Positions 2,018-29,046 of a stretch of DNA of 64,000 nt are shown here, one piece after another. Where the stretch lies: positions 32,001-96,000 of IMG/VR virus record IMGVR_UViG_3300036861_000610. The stretch is one strand, 5' to 3'. The notes beneath the pieces were generated by a model, which made no database searches, was not told where the DNA came from, and saw only the letters and a list, made by a program, of their open reading frames with translations. This DNA comes from a virus. Each line of letters opens with the position of its first letter. The first letter of the stretch is position 1. The translations under genes and the position numbers were made by a program.

Positions 2018-3454
2018 ATGGGGTTATCTCTCCAGGACCGCGTCGCCATGCTGCCGGCCGAGGACCGCAACGCATGGCTTGCTGAGCTGCCCGACTACCT
2101 CATCGAAGAGATGGAGCGCGGCGAATGGTGGTGGGTCTCACGCCCAGAACAGGTACCTCCGCCAGGCAACTGGTTCGTGTGCCTCGCACTCGCCGGCCGC
2201 GGCTGGGGGAAGTCTCGAAGCGGCAGTGAATGGATCGTCAACCAGGTCCTAAGGCATCCATTCGACAGCAGTGGAACCCCCACCGAGTGGCTCGTTATCG
2301 CTGAGACTCTGTCTGACGCCCGGACGATCTGCATGGAAGGTCCCGCCGGCATTCTGCGAGTACTGGAACGACGTAAAATCAAGCACCGTTACAAGATGAG
2401 TCCACGCCCTATGATCCTGTTCCCGGACGGGGCGAAGATCTACACCGAAGGGGCTGACGACCCTGACGTAGGGCGCGGATACAACTCGTCCGGCGCCTGG
2501 TTGGACGAATGCGTGAAATGGAAATACCCAAAGAAGTCTTGGTTCGAGGGCATTATGCCTTCGTTGCGGGCAGACCTTGTTGGGGATCATCCAAGGGCAT
2601 TCGTTACCACTACGCCTAAGCCAATCGATCTTCTTCAGGAGTGGCTCAAACGAGACGACGGAACCGTTCACTTAATGCGTGGTTCCACCTTTGAAAATGC
2701 GTCCAACCTGTCTCAGCTTGTTATCGACGAACTGCGTAAACGCTATGAAGGCACCGACATTGGCCGCCAAGAACTTCATGGTGAAATGATCGAAGGCTAC
2801 GAAGGTGCACTCTTCAAGCGCATTGACATCATTAACAACAGGCTGGCCGAGGCCCCAGAATTAGTCAACATCGTCGTTGGCGTTGACCCGTCACTCACTG
2901 GCGAGGACGATGAGATGGGTATTGTTGTTGTCGGTCGCGACCGCGACAACCACATGTATGTCCTTGAAGATGCTTCTCTCATGGGTGTTGGTCGTTCGGC
3001 CGCCCTGGAAGCGTGGCGTGTGGTGGCACGCTGGGGTGCCGACAAGCTTATTTGTGAGGTAAACCTCGGCAAGCGGTGGATGCAACAGGTCTTCAACGAC
3101 GCGTATTACGAACTTGTTGGTCAACAGATATTTGAGAAAAACACCAAGCCACCGCTACTCGGCATCGACACGAAGATCGGCAAAAAGACCCGCGGTGAAC
3201 CCGTGGCTATGCGCAACGAGCAGGGCAGATTGCACCACATCGGCATCTTCCCGGAGCTGGAGGACCAGATGGCTACCTTCACCAGCTGGGGAACTTCAGA
3301 TTCACCCGACCGTCTCGACGCCCTGGTCCACGCCTGCCGCTTTCTGATCGACGGAGAAAAGAAGCAAGCAAGAATCTCCTCCCCCCAGGATGTTCTTTCC
3401 ACCACACTGCAGTCGTTGCTGGCCGAGGCAGGAAGCTATCGCGCCGACTTCTAG
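2018..3454 (+). CDS. terL: terminase large subunit
   Basis: AGRGWGKS Walker A, WLDE Walker B, TTTP, VGVDPS nuclease motif, C-terminal DRLDA. Confidence 0.93.
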   Translation: MGLSLQDRVAMLPAEDRNAWLAELPDYLIEEMERGEWWWVSRPEQVPPPGNWFVCLALAGRGWGKSRSGSEWIVNQVLRHPFDSSGTPTEWLVIAETLSDARTICMEGPAGILRVLERRKIKHRYKMSPRPMILFPDGAKIYTEGADDPDVGRGYNSSGAWLDECVKWKYPKKSWFEGIMPSLRADLVGDHPRAFVTTTPKPIDLLQEWLKRDDGTVHLMRGSTFENASNLSQLVIDELRKRYEGTDIGRQELHGEMIEGYEGALFKRIDIINNRLAEAPELVNIVVGVDPSLTGEDDEMGIVVVGRDRDNHMYVLEDASLMGVGRSAALEAWRVVARWGADKLICEVNLGKRWMQQVFNDAYYELVGQQIFEKNTKPPLLGIDTKIGKKTRGEPVAMRNEQGRLHHIGIFPELEDQMATFTSWGTSDSPDRLDALVHACRFLIDGEKKQARISSPQDVLSTTLQSLLAEAGSYRADF

Positions 3455-10907: not shown

Positions 10908-10908
10908 G

Positions 10909-10984
10909 AGCCGCAGGGGGGAGTCGAACCCCAAGTTTTACAGGTTTTGCAGACCTGCCGCTGCGCCGGCAACGACCCCACGGC
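10909..10984 (-). tRNA. tRNA-Cys(GCA), 8/4 Sec-like fold
   Basis: 8-bp acceptor, U73, 6-bp D stem with 4-nt loop, 6-bp anticodon stem, 4-bp T stem. Confidence 0.75.
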
Positions 10985-15116: not shown

Positions 15117-15119
15117 TTG

Positions 15120-15193
15120 TGCCCCGTACGGAATTCGAACCCGCGCTCACAGGGCTTTAGAGGCCCCGGCTCTGACCGCTGAGCTAACGAGAC
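15120..15193 (-). tRNA. tRNA with CTA anticodon (amber suppressor candidate)
   Basis: GGGGC-CTCTAAA-GCCCT in a full cloverleaf. Confidence 0.85.
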
Positions 15194-17750: not shown

Positions 17751-17803
17751 AGTGTGTAGGCCTTGCACCTACTCGGAGATCATAAGGACTACCTCTACGG
17801 GCG

Positions 17804-17876
17804 CGCTAACGACGGGACTCGAACCCGCGACATCCGACCTGACAAGCCGGTGCACTAGCCGCTGTGCTACGTCAGC
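17804..17876 (-). tRNA. tRNA-Asp(GTC)
   Basis: Loop TTGTCAG, G73. Confidence 0.88.
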
Positions 17877-17933
17877 AAATGGGGGTAGCAGTAGGCGCCA
17901 TTGCCCCCGCCTTCAAGGTGGAGCGGTGAAGCG

Positions 17934-18015
17934 TGCCCAGGGTGGGGTTCGAACCCACATCCCCGAAGGGACCTTCTTTTAAGGAAGGCATGTCGACCAA
18001 TTGCATCACCTGGGC
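17934..18015 (-). tRNA. tRNA-Leu(TAA)
   Basis: Loop CTTAAAA, variable arm with UUCG loop. Confidence 0.88.
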
Positions 18016-18407
18016 AGGCGAGTTGTTGACCAAACCCCTGCGCATGACTTGCCGCAGAACGGTCCAGCTTTACCGAGTACCCCTTGATTCCGACGAACCT
18101 CGCGCTGAGGTTTTGAAGATTTATTGCCACAAACGGGGCAGACAAAATTGAACATTGGTGCAGACGAGGTGCTTCGTTTCCTGTTCTCCTCTGGAGAGAG
18201 GACCTGAAGGTTGGAGACGTCATCATTGAGGCAATCTTTATCGATATGATCGGCCTCTTCGTCGGAGCTTAACTCGCGACCTAGGTGTTCTTCTAAAAGG
18301 TATCGAGCATATGACTGAGTGCGCCGAGTCCCATCGTCTGCGATCTTGATGACCAGACGACGAACCTGATTCCCAGTCTTGTAAAAATAGGGTCCGTAAA
18401 CTTTCAC
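18006..18407 (-). CDS. HNH homing endonuclease
   Basis: ADHIDKDCLNDDVSNL...N; C-terminal CPVC/CGKSC. Confidence 0.85.
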   Translation of the reverse strand: MKVYGPYFYKTGNQVRRLVIKIADDGTRRTQSYARYLLEEHLGRELSSDEEADHIDKDCLNDDVSNLQVLSPEENRKRSTSSAPMFNFVCPVCGNKSSKPQREVRRNQGVLGKAGPFCGKSCAGVWSTTRLPR

Positions 18408-18433
18408 GGGTCGCAGTTTACTACAAGTGCGTT

Positions 18434-18511
18434 TGGTACCTACGGGGAGACTCGAACTCCCAACCTCCGGGACCTGAACCCGGCGCCTCTGCCAAATTGG
18501 GCTACGCAGGC
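18434..18511 (-). tRNA. tRNA-Leu(CAG), short variable loop
   Basis: Loop TTCAGGT, ACCA end. Confidence 0.88.
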
Positions 18512-18630
18512 AAGGCACCCCAGTTTTTTCAGTCCACGATCATTGCCTCGCGAGCCTGATCGCTTTCCTTTGCGTCAATGTCGTGCGTCCCCCTGGGGTT
18601 AGGGCTTGACGCTGTCCGTGGAACCGGGCG

Positions 18631-18822
18631 TGGACCTGGCGGGATTCGAACCCGCGACCAATGTAGGCGGTGAGGTAACGCGCTTCCCTGCCGAGGGTTG
18701 AAGTTCCTTGTCCTGTGGTCTTCTACACCACGGGCTCGGTCCCGGTGCATCCGATAAACCCTTTTCCGTCGTGACCCGGCTCCGTTTTTCCGGCGCTCTG
18801 ACCCTTCCTGAGCTACAGGCCC
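18631..18822 (-). ncRNA. 192-nt tRNA-Ala-like RNA with anticodon arm replaced by a long hairpin
   Basis: GGGCCTG/CAGGTCC-A (G3:U70), intact D and T arms, insert with GTTACCTC. Confidence 0.75.
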
Positions 18823-18835
18823 ATTGCTCCTTGCG

Positions 18836-18911
18836 TGGATCCGACGGGATTCGAACCCGTACCTCTGCAAACCGTTAGCTGCTTATGCTCTCGCCATTAA
18901 GCTACGGACCC
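18836..18911 (-). ncRNA. tRNA-Ala-like RNA with aberrant anticodon arm
   Basis: GGGTCCG/CGGATCC-A (G3:U70), normal D and T arms. Confidence 0.65.
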
Positions 18912-18922
18912 ATTATTGACGA

Positions 18923-19087
18923 CTACCTTGAACCGCACCCACAGGAAATCTGCCCTGAGCCACCGCAGGTTCCGCAGGTTCTCTGCAGACCGCCGCTGGC
19001 GCGTATGAAGCCTTTACCATCACATGCGGCGCACTTGGTGTACCCATTGCCGCGACAGTTTGGGCACACCGGCTTCTTGTCTGCCAC
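18923..19087 (-). CDS. DnaJ-type zinc-finger microprotein 3
   Basis: AAGGA SD; CPNCRGNG, CAACDGKG, CGTCGGSG, CGCG. Confidence 0.75.
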   Translation of the reverse strand: MADKKPVCPNCRGNGYTKCAACDGKGFIRASGGLQRTCGTCGGSGQISCGCGSR

Positions 19088-19150
19088 GTGTTGGTTCCTT
19101 CTGGTGAGTTGCTTTGACCGCGGGAAGCGTAATGCCCGGGGCCATCTTTT

Positions 19151-19242
19151 TGGGGTGCGTGGGAGGACTTGGTTGACCCCCATCTTCCGCCACATGTTCG
19201 CGACGTCGGAAATGCGGTGCTCTACCTTGAGCTACACGCACC
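19151..19242 (-). ncRNA. tRNA-His-like RNA with expanded anticodon region
   Basis: G-1:C73 plus CCA, normal D arm, non-canonical anticodon and T loops. Confidence 0.6.
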
Positions 19243-19243
19243 G

Positions 19244-19316
19244 TGGAGCTTGCCGGACTCGAACCGGCCACCTCCGCCTTGCAAAAGCGGCGTTCTACCA
19301 GATGAACTAAAGCCCC
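19244..19316 (-). tRNA. tRNA-Ala(TGC)
   Basis: G3:U70, loop TTTGCAA. Confidence 0.92.
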
Positions 19317-19487
19317 GCAGAAGCCAGAGCTGATGAGTAACCCTGGCTTCCTAGTCGTTTGCCGTTCTGCCCGCTCAACCGAACTACTAGGCACTCTCGA
19401 CGACTGGCGAGATTCTGGATCAGGGAAGCGCACCTTTAGACCAGTTCGTTCCTCGGGAGCTACCCGAGGCCGAGCTTCTCTGACACG

Positions 19488-19560
19488 AGCCAACGACGTG
19501 GATCGAACACGCTACCTCCCCCGTACGAAGGGGGCGCCCTACCTTCAGGGCCTCGCTGGC
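19488..19560 (-). tRNA. tRNA-Thr(CGT)
   Basis: Loop TTCGTAC. Confidence 0.82.
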
Positions 19561-19569
19561 ACTCTCTTG

Positions 19570-19854
19570 CTACCAGGACACTGAGACCGGCGCGTACCAG
19601 TCCATATCCTCACGGTCGGCGGCCTGCGTTTTGAGCAGGCCCTGGCGGACCGTCCGCCAGGCGGCACGCTCCTGGCCGCGCAGGTGCTTACGGAACAGCT
19701 GACCTACGCACAGGTTGCAGCCGCAGGTGTTGTACAACGGCCACGGCTCTAAGCCCTGGCCGCCGTGCCAGTCGGGGCGCCATAGCATCCGATGCCGGTT
19801 GTACGGGTCTGCCGTCTGCACCTGGAAGGGGCGATGAACGTCGGTTCGGGACAT
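19570..19854 (-). CDS. hypothetical 'MSRT' protein
   Basis: MSRTDVHRPFQVQ...CGCNLC...Arg-rich helix. Confidence 0.7.
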   Translation of the reverse strand: MSRTDVHRPFQVQTADPYNRHRMLWRPDWHGGQGLEPWPLYNTCGCNLCVGQLFRKHLRGQERAAWRTVRQGLLKTQAADREDMDWYAPVSVSW

Positions 19855-19896
19855 GTGACGACCTGTCCTTCGGCCGCCTGGAGACTTTCCCCAGGG

Positions 19897-19917
19897 CTAA
19901 CACCGGTTGACGTGCAT
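19897..19917 (-). promoter_or_regulatory. uORF (MHVNRC-TAG) with downstream alternative hairpins
   Basis: AAGGAG SD; CCTGG/CCAGG hairpin overlapping GGCGGCC/GGTCGTC hairpin. Confidence 0.55.
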
Positions 19918-19951
19918 CGTGATCACTCCTTTTTAGGTCGATACTGAGCAC

Positions 19952-20158
19952 ATGAGCGAAACTGTCCAGATCATTTCCGCGGTGACCACCGGCGTGGTGG
20001 CCATCATCGCCGCCTACGGCGCCATCCAGGCCAAGAAGGTCCATACGATTGTGAATTCTCGAACCGACGCCATGGTGGCTCGGATCGACCAGTTGGTCAA
20101 GGAGCTGCATGTCCGGGGCGATGGCTCCGTTCCAGAAACCCCAGAGAAGAAGGATTGA
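19952..20158 (+). CDS. small membrane protein
   Basis: N-terminal TM helix plus coiled segment. Confidence 0.6.
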   Translation: MSETVQIISAVTTGVVAIIAAYGAIQAKKVHTIVNSRTDAMVARIDQLVKELHVRGDGSVPETPEKKD

Positions 20159-20230
20159 GCCGGCGGTAGGGCTCGAACCCACTGCCTCGGAGGTACAAGC
20201 TCCGCGCTCTACCCGTTGAGCTACGCCGGC
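20158..20230 (-). tRNA. tRNA-Thr(TGT)
   Basis: Loop CTTGTAC. Confidence 0.9.
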
Positions 20231-20234
20231 ACTG

Positions 20235-20309
20235 TGCTCACCACGGGATTCGAACCCGTACTGTCGGCCCCCTCAAGACCGTGCCTCCTGCCAGTTGGGC
20301 TAGGTGAGC
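20235..20309 (-). tRNA. tRNA-Leu(GAG), short variable loop
   Basis: CGGTC-TTGAGGG-GGCCG. Confidence 0.82.
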
Positions 20310-20315
20310 ATGCGT

Positions 20316-20519
20316 TTATGGTTTCTTTTCGACGAGAAGGTCGGCAACTCGCTGCACCTGTGTCGCCAGATGCAATAGTGCCCAGACCTGAGCATCCTGA
20401 ATTGCTGCCGCGACACAATTTGGATCTTCATGGTGCCAAGATCGTTTGAGTGAACGTCGTGCTTCTCTTTCGAAGTCTTGAACCGTCTCTACGCGTGCTG
20501 CTTCTTCTTTATGATTCAC
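20316..20519 (-). CDS. hypothetical protein
   Basis: 67-aa helical ORF filling the gap. Confidence 0.5.
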   Translation of the reverse strand: MNHKEEAARVETVQDFEREARRSLKRSWHHEDPNCVAAAIQDAQVWALLHLATQVQRVADLLVEKKP

Positions 20520-20520
20520 G

Positions 20521-20599
20521 TGAAGCTGCCGGGATTCGAACCCGGGTCCTCGACTATTCCGCTGTACGGTTTTGCAGCCAAGTCGTACCCACCAGCCCC
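20521..20599 (-). ncRNA. minimal tmRNA-like RNA (tRNA-like domain only)
   Basis: GGGGCTG, stemless D loop, CGAC...GTCG-AGGAC, T-arm, CAGCTTC-A. Confidence 0.7.
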
Positions 20600-20708
20600 A
20601 TTTTGCTTGGCCTTGTCGCTCAGAGCTTCACAGGCCCTTTGCGCCCACATCCGGCGGTGTTACTTAGTACCGCGCCCACCAGATAGCCAAGCTGGTGGGT
20701 TCCTAGCG

Positions 20709-20780
20709 CACCCGGCCAAGGATTCGAACCTCAACTAACAGAGTCAGAGTCTGTTGTCCTGCCATTTAGACCAGCCGGGT
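20709..20780 (-). tRNA. tRNA-Gln(CTG)
   Basis: Loop CTCTGAC. Confidence 0.9.
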
Positions 20781-20824
20781 AGGGGGAGGATCCGCAAATT
20801 CGCGGTCGGCGGATCCTCCCGGAA

Positions 20825-21274
20825 TCAGCGCTGAAGGGTGGCCCACGTGGGAGCGTAGGGCTTCACCTTCAGGGTCATACCGGCCTCGTTGGGCAGCCGG
20901 TCACCCTTGAGCTGATTGCACGGGTCGCAACACGCGACGGTGTTGACCCAGGTGTTCTTCCCGTCCCGAGAGACGGGGCGGATGTGGTCCACCGTGGTTC
21001 CCTTGGTGCTGCCGCAGTAGCCGCAGCACCGGTTGTCCCGACGGAGGACGCCAGCCCGAGACCAGGTCGGACCGGCCGTGTATCGCCACTTGGTGACGAT
21101 GAAGCGAAGCAATCTGACAGCGGTTGGCCGAGGCCATGCACCGAACTGTATGTCAGGCTCCGCTTCGTGGATCTCTGCTATACCGCGGCAGAGCATCCGG
21201 ATTGCGTGTCTGAGGCTAACCCGGTGCAGTGGACCGAGGTCAGCGTTCAGAACCATAACTGCTGCCCCTTGCAT
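20825..21274 (-). CDS. HNH endonuclease (HNH_5/McrA-like)
   Basis: VLNAD...RD..CGYCG...TVDHIRPVSRDG..W.N.V.CC..CN..K. Confidence 0.9.
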   Translation of the reverse strand: MQGAAVMVLNADLGPLHRVSLRHAIRMLCRGIAEIHEAEPDIQFGAWPRPTAVRLLRFIVTKWRYTAGPTWSRAGVLRRDNRCCGYCGSTKGTTVDHIRPVSRDGKNTWVNTVACCDPCNQLKGDRLPNEAGMTLKVKPYAPTWATLQR

Positions 21275-22465: not shown

Positions 22466-23488
22466 CTAGATCAGGTACAGGTACCGGGTGCCGGCGATCA
22501 GCTTCCGGTTGATCGACGTCGACTGGACGTAGATGTCGAAGTCGGGGTTGTGGTTCGGGCTCACCCGCACGTTCATGTCGGGCAGACCCACCATCTGACG
22601 CGCGTCCCGGCCGCTGTACACCTTGTGGTCCTTCTTGCCGACCACCATGATGTCCTTCGTCGCCTGGATTTCTTCACGCTTCATCAGCTGGTAGAACCCG
22701 CGGCCGGCCTGGTAGTTGTGGCCGCACGCCTTGGTGAACTCGTCGATGCGCGAGTCAGTTGGCACTGGCACCAGGACATAGGTGCCTTTTGCCATCGGCG
22801 TGAGGCCGGCCTGGGCGATGGTCTGGACGTTTACTGCGTCGGCGCCGGTGGAGAACAGGTTCCGGGTGGACCGGACGCCGGCTCGACGGGCCTGCATGTA
22901 GTTCTCGGTGGCGTCTCGGACGCGGTCTCCAGCTTCCCCGACGCCAGCTGCCGAGTTGGGGTTCCAGATCTCGATGTTGCCGGCGGAGAAGCCGAACTGT
23001 TTGGCCTCACGCATGCCCATGGCGTTGGGCACCAGTGCCGCAACGGTCCAATGGTCTTTGAGGCCGGCGAGACGCGCCTTGAGGGTGGCCGGTCGGTTAA
23101 CGCTGCGGTTTTCTTCGCCGTCGGTCAGGACGAAGACCAGGAACGAGTGGTCGCCGTAGCGTTCTGGGGTCTCCCCCAGGTGGTCCAGGGCCTGCAGTGT
23201 GGCGTCGATGAACGCGGTGTTGCCAAACGGTGTGTAGAAGCTGCTGATGCTCGGCAGCCGCAGCACATCCTTGTCCCAGACGACGCATTCGATGCGGTTG
23301 GGGTCGGCGAATGTCCACACCGAGATCCGGGTCTCCTGGTCCAATTCCTTGGACCGTCGGGCCAGGTGTTCAATCTGGCCGTCGGCGACTTTGATCAGGT
23401 CCTTTTTGTGCGGCGTCATCGAGGTCGATGCGTCTAGCACGAAGGCGATGTGGTTGATGATGTTGGCAATTGGTGCTGTCGCTGGCAT
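22466..23488 (-). CDS. vWA-domain protein
   Basis: MIDAS DASTS, T, TDGEEN. Confidence 0.88.
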   Translation of the reverse strand: MPATAPIANIINHIAFVLDASTSMTPHKKDLIKVADGQIEHLARRSKELDQETRISVWTFADPNRIECVVWDKDVLRLPSISSFYTPFGNTAFIDATLQALDHLGETPERYGDHSFLVFVLTDGEENRSVNRPATLKARLAGLKDHWTVAALVPNAMGMREAKQFGFSAGNIEIWNPNSAAGVGEAGDRVRDATENYMQARRAGVRSTRNLFSTGADAVNVQTIAQAGLTPMAKGTYVLVPVPTDSRIDEFTKACGHNYQAGRGFYQLMKREEIQATKDIMVVGKKDHKVYSGRDARQMVGLPDMNVRVSPNHNPDFDIYVQSTSINRKLIAGTRYLYLI

Positions 23489-26705: not shown

Positions 26706-28316
26706 CTAGCTCGCGGTCTCCCACGGCCAGGACGCCTTCTGCCCCGCCTCGATCAACGGAACCATGCTGAACGTGTGGTCTGTTAGGCCACCCAGCTGGT
26801 GCCGAGTTGACGTGGTGTCCAACATGGCCGGCGCGTAGCCTGCCAGGTTGAAGCTGTAGACCGACGTCTCAGCCGGAACCTGAGCCCCGACATCTCCCTG
26901 CCAGTACCCACGACCCGGCCCGAAGGTCTGCTCGTCGGTCATGATGAAGACGCGGTTGTGGCCCTGGAATGTCGCCTTCAAGGCCGCCGCGGTGTGAGTG
27001 CCACCGCCGCGCACCTTGCGCTTGAACGCCTCGATGTCGCGCAGGATGCTGCCACCCTTGCTGATCTCGAACTTCCAGGGGGTGTTGTCGAAGCCGTAGA
27101 CGTCGACCTTCTCACCCTTGTGCGCCAGTGCCAGTCCAAACAAGGCGGCCTGGTCCACCACCTCGACCTGCGACTTGCCCGACATCCGACCCTTCATCGA
27201 CCCTGACGTGTCGATCAGGATCAGAGTCCGACCTGGTAGCGGCGGGATGTTCGCCGTCGAATACTGCAACGCCAGCTCCAGCGCCGACACCCACTGGGCA
27301 CCGGTTGCGGTGGCGTACGCCGACAGGAACCGGAACGGCAGCTGCCTTGACCGGGCAACCTCGTCAGGGTCGGCCAGACGCTCGTTCACCTGCTTGACAG
27401 CCGCGGCGGAGATCCCCGCCTCCTGGAAGTTGCGCAGGTTGCGCAGCAAAGCCATGTAGCCCATAACTGGGATCAAGGACTCCCACACTTCAGCTGTCAT
27501 CGCACCCCAGGACGAGGCCTGCTCCCAGGTGATGCCGGCATCCCGCAGGATTTCCTCGGAGTCGTCGCCGAGCATCAGGTCACGCTTCGCCTTGTCTGGC
27601 AGGGCCAGGATGGTGGCGCGCTTGTCCAGCACCGCCAGCTGCTGCGAGATCGGCGTCTTCGGGTCCCGACGTACGTCCAGGATGTACTTGAACAGCGCTG
27701 ACTGGGTCAAGCTGGCCGGCTCCGGGTGGGTCAGCTCGATGACATCGGCCATCCGAACCGCCTTGTCCCCGCCGTTCCACTTGATGTACGCGAACTGGTT
27801 GTACTTCGCAGTCGCACCGTCGCCGATTCCACGACGAATACCGGCCGGCAGCTGGCGCCCGTAGGTCGCCAGCCAGTAAGCCAACGCCTCAGCTGGCTCA
27901 TCGGGACGGCCGACCCAGAAGAAACTGCGGAGCAGCTGCCGCGAGTCACCAACCCGAGAACCGGGCTGGTCAGCCTTGAGCATTATCTTGGCAGCTTCGA
28001 CGGCCGCGACGACGGCCGCGGTGCGGATGTTGGCCTTGTCGCGGAGCCAGACGATGAACTCCTTGATCCATGCAGGGTCCTCGGCGGCGACGGTGCGGAC
28101 TAGAGCGGCGAAGCGCTGGTTCCGGTCGCTGGCCTTCTCGTAGAAGGTGTCCTCGCCGTAGAAGTTGGAGACAGCCAGGAGGAAGAGTTCCGACTTGGTC
28201 TCGCGGGTGTAGGCCGGCGCGCCCTCGAACGTCTTGGTGTCCTTGGCCGCAGCACGCAGTGGCGAGCCCGCATTCGGGGTGGCCGTCCTGGTGCCTCGCT
28301 TGTTGGTGGTGGCCAT
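26706..28316 (-). CDS. rsr: Ro60/TROVE-domain RNA-binding protein
   Basis: ELFLL, MALLRNLRN, SRQLPFRFLSAY, vWA DTSGSM, GGGT, TDEQ. Confidence 0.93.
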   Translation of the reverse strand: MATTNKRGTRTATPNAGSPLRAAAKDTKTFEGAPAYTRETKSELFLLAVSNFYGEDTFYEKASDRNQRFAALVRTVAAEDPAWIKEFIVWLRDKANIRTAAVVAAVEAAKIMLKADQPGSRVGDSRQLLRSFFWVGRPDEPAEALAYWLATYGRQLPAGIRRGIGDGATAKYNQFAYIKWNGGDKAVRMADVIELTHPEPASLTQSALFKYILDVRRDPKTPISQQLAVLDKRATILALPDKAKRDLMLGDDSEEILRDAGITWEQASSWGAMTAEVWESLIPVMGYMALLRNLRNFQEAGISAAAVKQVNERLADPDEVARSRQLPFRFLSAYATATGAQWVSALELALQYSTANIPPLPGRTLILIDTSGSMKGRMSGKSQVEVVDQAALFGLALAHKGEKVDVYGFDNTPWKFEISKGGSILRDIEAFKRKVRGGGTHTAAALKATFQGHNRVFIMTDEQTFGPGRGYWQGDVGAQVPAETSVYSFNLAGYAPAMLDTTSTRHQLGGLTDHTFSMVPLIEAGQKASWPWETAS

Positions 28317-28391: not shown

Positions 28392-28520
28392 GCTGTCAGG
28401 CGACGAGGTGACCTAAGTTCCAGGGTTATGAGCCCTGGGCCGCGCCATGCGGCTCCGCCATGGGTGGCGGAGGGAGGAATTGAACCTTCGAAGTAACTCA
28501 GGTCGAACAGATCTGACAGC
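28392..28520 (-). ncRNA. Y RNA with permuted tRNA-fMet-like module
   Basis: GCTGTCAG/CTGACAGC ends, GAGTTACTTC, T-arm, closed acceptor, CAGGG-CTCATAA-CCCTG. Confidence 0.75.
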
Positions 28521-28531
28521 GGAACTTATGG

Positions 28532-28608
28532 TGGCACAGGCAACGGGACGGTCCAAGGTATTTTTTCAGTTAGCAGTGAAGTAACCCTGAACCTTCGGAT
28601 CTGTGCCA
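28532..28608 (-). ncRNA. short Y RNA (no tRNA module)
   Basis: CAGATCCGAAG...GGGTTACTTC...GTTGCCTG. Confidence 0.8.
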
Positions 28609-28649
28609 TGCCTTGGGGCGGGCCCGAAATCCCGCAGTGAAAGGATGAA

Positions 28650-28728
28650 GCCGCCAGGCAACAAGGTGACCCAGGTGTCTTTTTAATCCCAAATGATTGA
28701 AGTAACCCAGGTCTTCGGATCTGGCGAC
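28650..28728 (-). ncRNA. short Y RNA (no tRNA module)
   Basis: CCAGATCCGAAG...GGGTTACTTC...TTGTTGCCTGG. Confidence 0.8.
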
Positions 28729-28759
28729 TCATTGTCCCCAAGCGACGGAGAGCTATGAA

Positions 28760-28894
28760 CTACCAGGCAACAATTCAGCGTGAGGTGTTTAATGTGCTGC
28801 CGTTACACCACGTCGTCACTGGTGACGACGCCAGGACTCGAACCTGGACCCCTTCTTAATCAGAGAAGTAACCCCGTACCTTCGGATCTGGTAG
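28760..28894 (-). ncRNA. YrlA-like Y RNA
   Basis: Ro stem plus T-arm CCAGG-TTCGAGT-CCTGG, closed acceptor, D arm. Confidence 0.85.
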
Positions 28895-28901
28895 AAGTTT
28901 G

Positions 28902-29046
28902 ATGCCGCCAGGCAACAAGTCGACGTGAGGTGTTTTACGCGCTCTATCCACTGAGCTATACGGACACGGTGCCCGCACCTGGGATCGAACCAGGGACCTC
29001 GTCCTTGACATGGAAGTAACCCCGGTGTCTTCGGATCTGGCGACAT
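28902..29046 (-). ncRNA. YrlA-like Y RNA
   Basis: Ro stem plus T-arm CCTGG-TTCGATC-CCAGG, closed acceptor, GCTC-AGTGGATA-GAGC D arm. Confidence 0.87.

What the first reader, a model, noticed from the sequence alone, without database searches (positions are those of the whole stretch)
18631..18822. Alanine-acceptor RNA that looks like a circularly permuted Y RNA
Seen: perfect tRNA-Ala acceptor (G3:U70, A73), D arm and T arm, with the anticodon arm replaced by ~130 nt forming a long hairpin (AACG/CGTT, GCCGGG/CTCGGC, AGGGTT/AACCCT). The junctions, D-arm..AAAAC and GTTACCTC..GGTC-T-arm, mirror those of the YrlA-like RNAs at 28760-29046 (AAAAC, GTTACTTC). YrlA acceptors are closed loops; this one has free ends. 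Inference: an aminoacylatable Y-like RNA linking Ro60 to EF-Tu or the ribosome.
Basis: partly seen in the sequence, partly recalled or inferred. Interest (0 to 1): 0.78.

Follow-up and report, generated by a model that had tools for sequence, protein, structure and literature searches.

The report
Non-decoding tRNA-shaped phage RNA, Ro60-linked
This is a real, unannotated RNA gene in a large phage's tRNA cluster that has a complete tRNA body but cannot read codons; it belongs to a conserved, apparently undescribed family that travels with the phage gene for the RNA-quality-control protein Ro60, and its alanine-type end is not a family trait.

Summary
The tRNA-like parts are real. On the minus strand, 18822-18631 has a 7-bp acceptor stem with G3:U70 and A73, a D arm and a T arm.

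Comparison of 25-32 relatives shows two features:
- a 5-bp stem with a near-invariant 8-nt loop (AAAACGGA) where the anticodon arm sits;
- a ~105-nt conserved extra arm where the variable arm sits.

The RNA belongs to a 152-283-nt family. I found it in Streptomyces phages, uncultured large phages and linear Streptomyces plasmids. It is unannotated in every GenBank record I opened and matches no Rfam family. Copies lie in tRNA arrays on the tRNA strand. The window copy ends N73-C74 like its tRNA neighbours, so it is probably processed like a tRNA.

G3:U70 occurs in only 5 of 32 members and differs between close relatives. Alanine charging is therefore possible here but is not the family's function.

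The Ro60 link has genomic support. Most element-bearing phage genomes encode a TROVE/Ro60 protein, against 0 of 4 controls. In three contigs the RNA lies 44-324 nt upstream of Ro60, beside YrlA-like RNAs. Ro60 binding itself is untested.

Earlier notes from this scan describe the same family in other genomes. My best reading is an open-ended, Y-RNA-like partner or accessory of the phage Ro60 system.

The parts
18631..18822 (-). Whole tRNA-shaped RNA gene, 192 nt from G1 (18822) to discriminator A73 (18631). C74 is encoded at 18630 and no CCA is encoded.
   Evidence: Sequence. nhmmer family profile E = 2e-27. Covariation across 25 homologues. The 3' flank follows the N73-C74-g pattern of the tRNAs in the array.
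18816..18822 (-). Acceptor stem, 5' strand GGGCCUG
   Evidence: Pairs with 18632-18638. 100% paired in 25 sequences, with 6 of 7 pairs covarying.
18632..18638 (-). Acceptor stem, 3' strand CAGGUCC (U70 at 18634), followed by A73 at 18631
   Evidence: In alignment A3 the 3:70 pair is C-G in 19 sequences, G-C in 3 and G.U in 3.
18795..18813 (-). D arm: stem GCUC/GAGC with an 11-nt loop that contains GGG
   Evidence: 99% paired. A14 and a D-loop G are invariant.
18776..18793 (-). Hairpin at the anticodon-arm position: a 5-bp stem (four Watson-Crick pairs plus an A.G closing pair) and the 8-nt loop AAAACGGA (18788-18781). There is no U33, so it cannot decode.
   Evidence: All five pairs show compensated changes. 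The closing pair is A.G in 19 sequences and G-C, G.U or U-A in 6. The loop is nearly invariant.
18666..18770 (-). Conserved extra arm at the variable-arm position. It has a base helix GACGG/CCGCC, a core with the near-invariant blocks CGGAUGCACCG and AGGGAAGCGCGU, and two lineage-variable hairpins.
   Evidence: The base helix covaries. The core helices UGC/GCG and CC/GG each show one compensated change. Covariance model R1 scores 66.8 bits here, although this sequence was part of the training set.
18639..18655 (-). T arm: GCGGG, loop UUCGAAU, CCCGC
   Evidence: 100% paired, with 4 of 5 pairs covarying. The loop positions U54, U55, C56 and A58 are invariant.
26706..28316 (-). Ro60 homologue (TROVE plus vWA domains, 536 aa), the candidate protein partner, 8 kb upstream on the same strand
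   Evidence: Pfam TROVE E = 1.9e-22. 35-42% identical to annotated Ro-like proteins of Streptomyces, Arthrobacter and Gordonia phages.
28392..29044 (-). Five tandem Y-RNA-like genes upstream of Ro60: 29044-28904, 28894-28760, 28728-28650, 28607-28533 and 28520-28392. The first two carry a closed tRNA-like domain (YrlA type).
   Evidence: Repeated motifs AGAUCCGAAG, GGGUUACUUC and UUGUUGCCUGG read. Weak Rfam YrlA matches of 21-26 bits.

Best explanation
The stretch is a single-copy gene for a non-decoding, tRNA-shaped RNA. It belongs to a conserved family that I found described nowhere.

**Shown**
- The RNA has a full tRNA body: acceptor, D and T arms with the elbow nucleotides.
- It has a 5-bp stem with the near-invariant 8-nt loop AAAACGGA at the anticodon-arm position.
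- It has a large extra arm at the variable-arm position with a near-invariant core.
- Family copies sit in tRNA arrays on the tRNA strand.

**Inferred**
- It is transcribed with the array.
- RNase P cuts it at G1, and its 3' end is trimmed and completed to CCA like its neighbours.
- This leaves a stable RNA of about 195 nt with a free acceptor end.

**Most likely role (inferred from gene neighbourhood and co-occurrence)**
It is an accessory RNA of the phage's Ro60 ribonucleoprotein system. It would be a Y-RNA-like molecule with the opposite topology to YrlA. The conserved loop and extra arm expose CGGAG and CGGAUG motifs that resemble the CGAA-type Ro60 motif of Y RNAs. These would form the protein-binding module. 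The tRNA body would supply processing, stability and contact with tRNA-binding enzymes.

**Alanine identity**
The G3:U70/A73 set of this copy could allow charging by AlaRS, but it is a lineage accident and not the family's mechanism.

**Rough odds**
- Real conserved RNA gene: 0.95.
- Processed like a tRNA: 0.75.
- Works with Ro60: 0.4-0.45.
- Alanine-charged in this phage: about 0.25.
For: **Family and fold**
- blastn and pattern scans followed by an nhmmer profile gave 32 distinct full-length members of 152-283 nt.
- Sources are Streptomyces phages (Gilsonvirus group, Quantum/JustBecause group, Alone3 group), IMG/VR contigs up to 437 kb, metagenomes, and six linear Streptomyces plasmids.
- The structure is 91.7% paired. 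26 of 36 pairs changed on both sides, no shuffle of 500 matched this, and slid controls gave 32-48%.

**Not in catalogues**
- ARAGORN and Rfam at gathering thresholds call nothing at this position.
- The site is an unannotated gap in the GenBank phage records I opened, or carries only a hypothetical-protein call as in Moab.

**tRNA-like expression**
- In 30 loci every tRNA is on the element's strand, and the nearest tRNA is often 1-23 nt away.
- In the window there are 13 nt to the upstream gene.
- No promoter-like site was found in 17800-20800. The only terminator-like sites (20174-20157 and 18409-18394) lie outside the element.
- Nearly all tRNAs in the array, and the element itself, end N73-C74 followed by a non-CA base.
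- L133, L141 and L380 encode ACCA.

**Ro60 link**
- TROVE is present in Patelgo, Forrest, G001-G004, G009, G011, G014, G015, Quantum, JustBecause and this genome. Matches are weak in G005, G012 and G013.
- TROVE is absent from 4 of 4 control large phage records.
- The element lies 324, 44 and 90 nt upstream of Ro60 in L424, L416 and L525, next to YrlA-like matches.
- It lies 2.4-4.4 kb from Ro60 in L080, L526, Alone3, GiJojo, LuckySocke and pSt2308.

**Published precedent**
- Phage Ro60 binds phage-encoded Y-like RNAs that carry a CGAA motif, and it recruits host PNPase (PMC12135203).
- M. smegmatis YrlA is opened by RNase P and receives CCA (PMC4201824; 10.1101/312249).

**Motif**
- CGRA(N)G occurs 80 times in the 32 members against 39.8 expected. 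It falls in the loop, the 4-nt bulge and the junction.
Against: - No binding data exist.
- Four complete element-bearing phage or provirus records (G006, G007, G008, G017) and a plasmid (NZ_CP108678) have no TROVE gene.
- In G004 the element and TROVE are about 137 kb apart.
- In this window five ordinary Y-like RNAs already flank Ro60, and the element is 8 kb away.
- Ro60 genes and tRNA arrays are both features of large phages. With only four controls, co-occurrence could be a shared-context effect.
- The Rfam YrlA model matches only the T arm (21-22 bits).
- The CGRA(N)G resemblance is post hoc, and the member sequences are related to one another.
- The canonical CGAA form is missing from this window's copy.
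Confidence: 0.45

Rival explanations
1. One reading: an alanine-charged, circularly permuted Y RNA that couples Ro60 to EF-Tu or the ribosome.
For: - This copy has G1-C72, G2-C71, G3.U70 and A73.
- By established knowledge, G3:U70 suffices for AlaRS to charge even minihelices.
- The free acceptor end has a tRNA-like 3' flank.
- The Ro60 association is described above.
- G3:U70 recurs in L080, L424, L516 and L531. L531 has the tmRNA/tRNA-Ala-type stem GGGGCUG/CAGCUCC followed by A.
Against: - G3:U70 is present in only 5 of 32 members.
- It differs between close relatives. L424 has G.U while L416 and L525 have C-G, with nearly identical cores.
- The discriminator is G or U in 4 members.
- No tag reading frame or SmpB-type features are present.
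- Nothing links the RNA to EF-Tu or the ribosome.
Confidence: 0.1
2. A tRNA decoy that acts independently of Ro60. It would be a stable mimic that occupies or misleads host tRNA-directed enzymes, such as anticodon nucleases and other tRNA-targeting defences, CCA-adding enzyme, modification enzymes or synthetases. This would protect the phage's own large tRNA set.
For: - The tRNA body and elbow are intact, and the anticodon-position loop cannot decode.
- The family sits in large tRNA arrays.
- Some carriers lack TROVE.
- The window holds other non-decoding tRNA-like genes at 18835-18911 and 20518-20599.
Against: - The AAAACGGA loop resembles no anticodon loop that a nuclease would recognise.
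- A simple decoy would not need a ~100-nt extra arm with a near-invariant core.
- The adjacency to Ro60 in several lineages would be left unexplained.
Confidence: 0.2
3. A tRNA-scaffolded functional RNA with another job, such as an aptamer, a ribozyme or a regulator of another protein. The tRNA body would serve only for processing and stability. Co-occurrence with Ro60 would reflect shared residence in the tRNA arrays of large phages.
For: - The near-invariant unpaired blocks CGGAUGCACCG and AGGGAAGCGCGU, with variable peripheral hairpins, look like a ligand-binding or catalytic core.
- The family occurs in plasmids and phages that lack TROVE.
- Analogous tRNA-like stable RNAs of T4 and T5 are known, with unknown function. 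This rests on my own knowledge and on earlier scan notes.
Against: - There is no match to any Rfam ribozyme or riboswitch.
- Neither a ligand nor a cleavage site can be proposed.
- The direct adjacency to Ro60 and YrlA-like genes in L424, L416 and L525 would be a coincidence.
Confidence: 0.15
4. A genuine decoding tRNA, either a frameshift or stop suppressor with an 8-nt loop or a tRNA gene interrupted by an intron that is spliced out.
For: - Eight-nucleotide anticodon loops exist in frameshift suppressors (established knowledge).
- The array holds unusual tRNAs with CUA, UCA and four-base anticodon calls.
Against: - The loop has no U33 and no uridine at all, and it is the same in nearly every member whatever the acceptor stem.
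- The insert is not in the anticodon loop.
- At 105 nt the insert is too short for a group I intron, and no intron family matched.
- Removing the insert still leaves the AAAACGGA loop.
Confidence: 0.03
5. A miniature tmRNA.
For: - The Rfam tmRNA model aligns end to end at 22.6 bits.
- The acceptor and T arm are of tmRNA/tRNA-Ala type.
Against: - The score is far below the 47-bit threshold, and ARAGORN calls no tmRNA.
- A true D stem is present.
- I saw no resume codon or tag frame by eye in the window copy.
- G3:U70 is not conserved.
- The related phage Forrest carries a separate annotated tmRNA near its copy.
Confidence: 0.02

Closest known systems
YrlA-type bacterial and phage Y RNAs (Rfam RF02553; Chen et al. 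2014, PMC4201824; structure preprint 10.1101/312249; phage phiLo Yrl1/Yrl2, PMC12135203)
   Same: - Both have a tRNA-like D arm, T arm and elbow.
- Both are encoded in Ro60 gene neighbourhoods of phages, on the same strand as Ro60 in the window, L424, L416 and L525.
- Both have CG(A/G)A-type purine motifs in unpaired regions.
- There is a YUAY-like CUAC just before the linker to the T arm.
- M. smegmatis YrlA can be opened by RNase P and given CCA.
   Different: - The topology is opposite. The RNA ends form the acceptor stem here, whereas in YrlA they form the Ro60-binding stem and the acceptor is a closed loop.
- An anticodon-position hairpin with an invariant loop is present.
- The large conserved arm leaves from the variable-arm position.
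- The Rfam YrlA model matches only the T arm, at 21-22 bits against a threshold of 69.
- Ro60 binding is untested.
tRNA-like stable RNAs of phage tRNA clusters (T4 species 1 and 2 RNAs; T5 RNA1 and RNA2). Cited from my own knowledge and from earlier scan notes e1-251137 and e1-293324.
   Same: - They are non-decoding.
- They have acceptor-like ends.
- They are encoded among phage tRNA genes and presumably processed with them.
- Their function is unknown.
   Different: - I did not test them for sequence similarity here.
- Those RNAs are 100-145 nt and lack the AAAACGGA loop and the GCACCG...GGGAAGCGCG core.
- No Ro60 link is reported for them.
tmRNA tRNA-like domain and canonical tRNA-Ala
   Same: In this copy, the G3:U70 pair, A73 and the T arm.
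   Different: - A true D stem is present.
- There is no tag frame and no pseudoknot series.
- There is no NGC anticodon.
- G3:U70 is absent from 27 of 32 relatives.

Membership tests
Undescribed family of tRNA-shaped RNAs with an AAAACGGA loop and a conserved extra arm (as defined here and in earlier scan notes) | Sequence match to the family profile over its full length | tested here: met
   nhmmer E = 2.1e-27 over profile positions 2-158. Covariance model R1 scores 66.8 bits, but the window sequence was in its training set. blastn finds 73-76% identity to the Patelgo and Forrest copies.
Undescribed family of tRNA-shaped RNAs with an AAAACGGA loop and a conserved extra arm | Cloverleaf body, a 5-bp stem with an 8-nt A4-5CGGA loop at the anticodon-arm position, and an extra arm carrying the GCACCG and GGGAAGCGCG blocks | tested here: met
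Undescribed family of tRNA-shaped RNAs with an AAAACGGA loop and a conserved extra arm | Location inside a tRNA array on the tRNA strand | tested here: met
   15 tRNAs lie within 2 kb, and 50 of the 51 tRNAs in the window are on the same strand.
YrlA / Y RNA (RF02553) | Match to the Rfam YrlA covariance model at the gathering score (69 bits) | tested here: not met
   21.5-22.4 bits, covering the T arm and downstream flank only.
YrlA / Y RNA (RF02553) | The 5' and 3' ends pair to form the Ro60-binding stem, and the acceptor-equivalent stem is a closed loop | tested here: not met
   Here the ends form a 7-bp acceptor stem with a free discriminator.
YrlA / Y RNA (RF02553) | The GNCGAAN0-1G (CGAA) motif implicated in Ro60 recognition | tested here: inconclusive
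   The window copy has CGGAG in the loop and CGGAUG in the bulge but no CGAA. Short-type relatives have CCGAAUG.
YrlA / Y RNA (RF02553) | Encoded next to the Ro60 (rsr) gene | tested here: inconclusive
   In the window the element is 8 kb downstream on the same strand. In L424, L416 and L525 it is 44-324 nt upstream. In other records it is 2.4-137 kb away or no TROVE gene is present.
YrlA / Y RNA (RF02553) | Bound by Ro60 in vivo or in vitro | not testable with these tools
   Needs immunoprecipitation or gel-shift experiments.
Canonical tRNA-Ala | G3:U70 with A73 | tested here: met
   The pair is not conserved in homologues: 3 of 25 in alignment A3 and 5 of 32 overall.
Canonical tRNA-Ala | A 7-nt anticodon loop with U33 and an NGC anticodon, and detection by tRNA finders | tested here: not met
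   The loop is the 8-nt AAAACGGA. ARAGORN and Rfam tRNA at the gathering score do not call it.
tmRNA | Tag reading frame, pseudoknots, no D stem, and a model score of at least 47 bits | tested here: not met
   The score is 22.6 bits. ARAGORN calls no tmRNA. A D stem is present.
Intron-containing tRNA (group I) | An intron in the anticodon loop with group I core helices | tested here: not met
   No intron family matched. The insert is in the variable-arm position and is 105 nt long.

The most novel reading that the evidence does not exclude
This would be a new topological class of Y RNA: a tRNA-bodied Ro60 partner with a free, CCA-ended acceptor stem. Some members, including this one with G3:U70/A73, would actually be aminoacylated. 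A Ro60 particle could then be handled by EF-Tu or other aminoacyl-tRNA-binding factors during infection.
Probability: 0.08. Interest if true: 0.9.

Novelty: new variant of a known kind. Interest (0 to 1): 0.62.

Why it matters
Ro60 and its Y RNAs are conserved from bacteria to humans, yet their effector logic is still poorly understood. A conserved phage RNA that keeps a complete, open-ended tRNA body and travels with Ro60 would be a second architecture for tRNA mimicry in this system. It would also give a tractable model, because several carriers are cultured Streptomyces phages (Patelgo, Forrest, Alone3, Quantum).

The finding also shows that tRNA finders and Rfam miss a recurrent RNA gene in the tRNA arrays of large phages. 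For annotation, gaps of 150-280 nt in such arrays should be checked for it.

Tried and rejected
1. I first concluded that Gilsonvirus phages carry the element without Ro60, because they were missing from a tblastn list. A Pfam TROVE search of the whole records showed that they do encode a divergent TROVE protein, so I withdrew that argument.
2. I tested the 'locked anticodon loop' pairing suggested by earlier scan notes. AAACG/CGUUU is 87.8% complementary but has no covariation. GGA/UCC is 85% complementary with no covariation. The first pairing also competes with a core helix that has one compensated change. The question is unresolved.
3. Single-sequence folding gave z = 0.23 and was uninformative.
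5. Covariance model R1 found nothing in 151 sampled Actinomycetota genomes. This is 'not found in those searched', not absence.
6. A full-length covariance model could not be calibrated within the time limit.
7. I looked for an antisense target of the loop in the window and found none.
8. There is no RtcB and no second copy of the element in the 147.9-kb genome.
9. I could not run a permuted-YrlA covariance search, because the tools take only stored sequence.

Full report
**Setting**

The window is part of a complete 147.9-kb virus record. It carries:
- a large terminase gene (2018-3454);
- a 6683-codon open frame;
- 51 tRNA calls, 50 of them on the minus strand between 1142 and 25153;
- a Ro60 homologue with TROVE and vWA domains at 28316-26706 on the minus strand.

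Upstream of Ro60, read on the minus strand, lie five tandem Y-RNA-like units (29044-28392). They share the motifs AGAUCCGAAG, GGGUUACUUC and UUGUUGCCUGG. The first two contain a closed tRNA-like domain, and Rfam YrlA matches them weakly at 21-26 bits.

**The observation**

On the minus strand, 18822-18631 reads as follows:
- a 7-bp acceptor stem GGGCCUG/CAGGUCC with G3.U70 and A73;
- U8 and A9;
- a D arm GCUC/GAGC;
- a T arm GCGGG-UUCGAAU-CCCGC.

ARAGORN and Rfam at gathering thresholds call nothing here. The tmRNA model aligns at only 22.6 bits, and YrlA matches only the T arm. The single sequence folds no better than shuffles (z = 0.23). The case therefore rests on comparison with relatives.

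**Homologues**

- blastn found the same element in Streptomyces phages, where the site is an unannotated gap or carries only a hypothetical-protein call. These were the Gilsonvirus group (Patelgo, Moab, Forrest and others) and the 186-kb Quantum/JustBecause group.
- Pattern scans followed by an nhmmer profile added IMG/VR contigs of 14 to 437 kb and metagenome contigs.
- A second blastn added the Alone3, GiJojo, LuckySocke and pSt2308 group, further Gilsonvirus-group phages, and six large linear Streptomyces plasmids.
- In total I collected 32 distinct full-length members of 152-283 nt.
- The window copy matches the family profile at E = 2e-27.
- It is single-copy in its genome.

**Fold**

I tested the fold on a 25-sequence alignment (A3).
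- The structure I wrote is 91.7% paired, with 26 of 36 pairs changed on both sides. No shuffle of 500 reached this, and slid controls gave 32-48% pairing.
- The acceptor, D and T helices are 99-100% paired.
- Directly after position 26 comes a 5-bp stem in which all five pairs vary in a compensated way. Its closing pair is A.G in 19 sequences and G-C, G.U or U-A in 6.
- That stem encloses an 8-nt loop, AAAACGGA, which is nearly invariant. Rare variants are AAAACGAA, AAAACGGU and ACAACGGA.
- This hairpin occupies exactly the anticodon-arm position. It has no U33, so it cannot form a decoding loop.
- The large insert leaves from the variable-arm position through a covarying base helix.
- The insert's core carries the near-invariant blocks (U)UGCGGAUGCACCG and AGGGAAGCGCGU(U).
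- One to three lineage-specific hairpins are inserted at one site, which gives short, long and third-type versions.

GCCGGG/CTCGGC and AGGGTT/AACCCT are specific to this window. AACG/CGTT is part of a conserved complementarity between the loop (AAAACG) and the 3' strand of the core (CGUUUU).

Earlier scan notes read that complementarity as a lock on the anticodon loop. I find it 87.8% complementary but without a single compensated change. It also competes with a core helix that has one compensated change. A second candidate pairing, GGA/UCC, behaves the same way. The lock is possible but not shown.

**Expression and processing (inferred)**

- In 30 element-bearing loci every tRNA lies on the element's strand, and the nearest tRNA is often 1-23 nt away.
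- In the window the element starts 13 nt after the preceding tRNA-like gene and ends 119 nt before tRNA-Leu.
- No promoter-like site was found in 17800-20800. The only terminator-like sites (20174-20157 and 18409-18394) lie outside the element.
- Nearly all tRNA genes in this array end N73-C74 followed by a non-CA base, mostly g. The element ends A73-C74-g in the same way.
- Three relatives encode ACCA.
- U8, A14, the D-loop G and the T-loop positions U54, U55, C56 and A58 are invariant.

The simplest reading is co-transcription with the array, RNase P cleavage at G1, 3' trimming and CCA completion.

**Alanine identity**

G3:U70 with A73 is present in this copy. By established knowledge, that would make even a minihelix a substrate of AlaRS. 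Within the family, however, the pair is G.U in only 5 of 32 members: window, L080, L424, L516 and L531. L424 has it, while L416 and L525 have C3-G70 with almost the same core and the same position beside Ro60. The discriminator is G or U in four members. Charging with alanine is therefore possible here but cannot be the conserved function.

**Ro60 link**

My first impression, that Gilsonvirus phages lack Ro60, was wrong. A Pfam TROVE search of the whole records finds a 540-562-codon TROVE frame in Patelgo, Forrest and three IMG/VR relatives.

Across element-bearing records:
- TROVE is present in G004, G009, G011, G014, G015, Quantum, JustBecause and this genome.
- Matches are weak in G005, G012 and G013.
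- TROVE is absent from four records estimated at least 93% complete (G006, G007, G008, G017), from three fragments, and from one plasmid.
- Four control large-phage records had none.
- In the GenBank phage collection, a tblastn search with this window's Ro60 matched only 93 of 50,697 records.

Position relative to Ro60:
- The element lies 324, 44 and 90 nt upstream of Ro60, on the same strand, in L424, L416 and L525. In L424 it directly follows two YrlA-like matches, and YrlA-like matches also lie further upstream in L416 and L525.
- It lies 2.4-4.4 kb from Ro60 in L080, L526, Alone3, GiJojo, LuckySocke and pSt2308.
- In the window it is 8 kb downstream of Ro60 in the same array.

The link is real at the genomic level. 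It is neither obligatory nor proof of binding. Both features belong to large phages with tRNA arrays, and my control set is small.

**Comparison with Y RNAs**

Published features of YrlA (PMC4201824; 10.1101/312249):
- a GNCGAAN0-1G motif near the 5' end;
- a Ro60-binding stem formed by the RNA ends;
- a closed acceptor-like stem;
- tRNA-like D and T arms.

M. smegmatis YrlA can be cut by RNase P and given CCA. A phage Ro60 binds phage-encoded Y-like RNAs that carry CGAA, and it recruits host PNPase (PMC12135203).

The present RNA shares the tRNA-like body and the Ro60 neighbourhood but has the opposite topology. It carries CG(A/G)A-type motifs at its three most conserved unpaired sites:
- CGGAG in the loop;
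- CGGAUG in a 4-nt bulge;
- CGAAUG at the junction, in short-type members only.

That is 80 occurrences against 39.8 expected in 32 related sequences. This is a post-hoc lead, not a test. It is not a member of the Rfam YrlA family: the model score and the topology tests both fail. It may still work like a Y RNA.

**Other readings**

- The loop rules out a decoding tRNA or suppressor.
- An intron is excluded by the position and size of the insert and the absence of any intron match.
- A tmRNA is excluded by the D stem, the absence of a tag frame that I could see in the window copy, and the low score. Forrest also has its own tmRNA nearby.
- A Ro60-independent decoy, or a tRNA-scaffolded RNA with another function, remains plausible.

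**Distribution and novelty**

- There is no Rfam family for it, and no RNA annotation at the site in any GenBank phage record I opened.
- Three literature searches on tRNA-like RNAs, Ro60 and Streptomyces phages turned up no paper describing it.
- Model R1 found nothing in 151 sampled Actinomycetota genomes.
- Earlier notes of this scan (e1-5596685, e1-5682350, e1-5406935) describe the same family on other DNA and reached a similar Ro60-linked reading. My tests agree on the family and on the Ro60 association. They leave the 'locked loop' unproven.

Noticed in passing
window 18835-18911 (minus strand): The gene just upstream is a 77-nt tRNA-like RNA. It also has G3:U70/A73 (GGGUCCG/CGGAUCC) and an 8-nt loop AGCUAACG without U33. 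ARAGORN calls it a four-base anticodon 'ctaa'. It shares AACGG with the element's loop.
   Followed up: partly
window 20518-20599 (minus strand): An 82-nt RNA matches both ends of the Rfam tmRNA model at 46 bits, just under the 47-bit threshold. Its acceptor stem is GGGGCUG/CAGCUUC followed by A73. It looks like a tmRNA tRNA-like domain with almost no messenger part. ARAGORN calls no tmRNA anywhere in the window.
   Followed up: partly
window 28392-29044 (minus strand): Five tandem Y-RNA-like genes lie upstream of Ro60. Two have closed tRNA-like domains and three are short. All fall below the Rfam YrlA threshold.
   Followed up: partly
window 19151-19242 (minus strand): An earlier scan note flags a further tRNA-like RNA here with His-type G-1:C73 plus CCA and no normal anticodon arm. 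I only read the sequence.
   Followed up: no
window 15119-15193, 17880-17966 and 10908-10984: The array holds a CUA-anticodon tRNA (called Pyl, so a possible amber suppressor), a plus-strand SeC(UCA) call that overlaps tRNA genes, and a tRNA-Cys that also scores as tRNA-Sec in Rfam.
   Followed up: no
window 22466-23488 and 20825-21274 (minus strand): A 340-aa vWA-domain protein and an HNH endonuclease are embedded inside the tRNA array.
   Followed up: no
window 35831-55882 (plus strand): A single open frame of 6683 codons lies downstream of structural-looking genes. I did not examine it.
   Followed up: no
L526:5583-5640: This relative carries a second AAAACGGAG motif just after its anticodon-position hairpin.
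   Followed up: no
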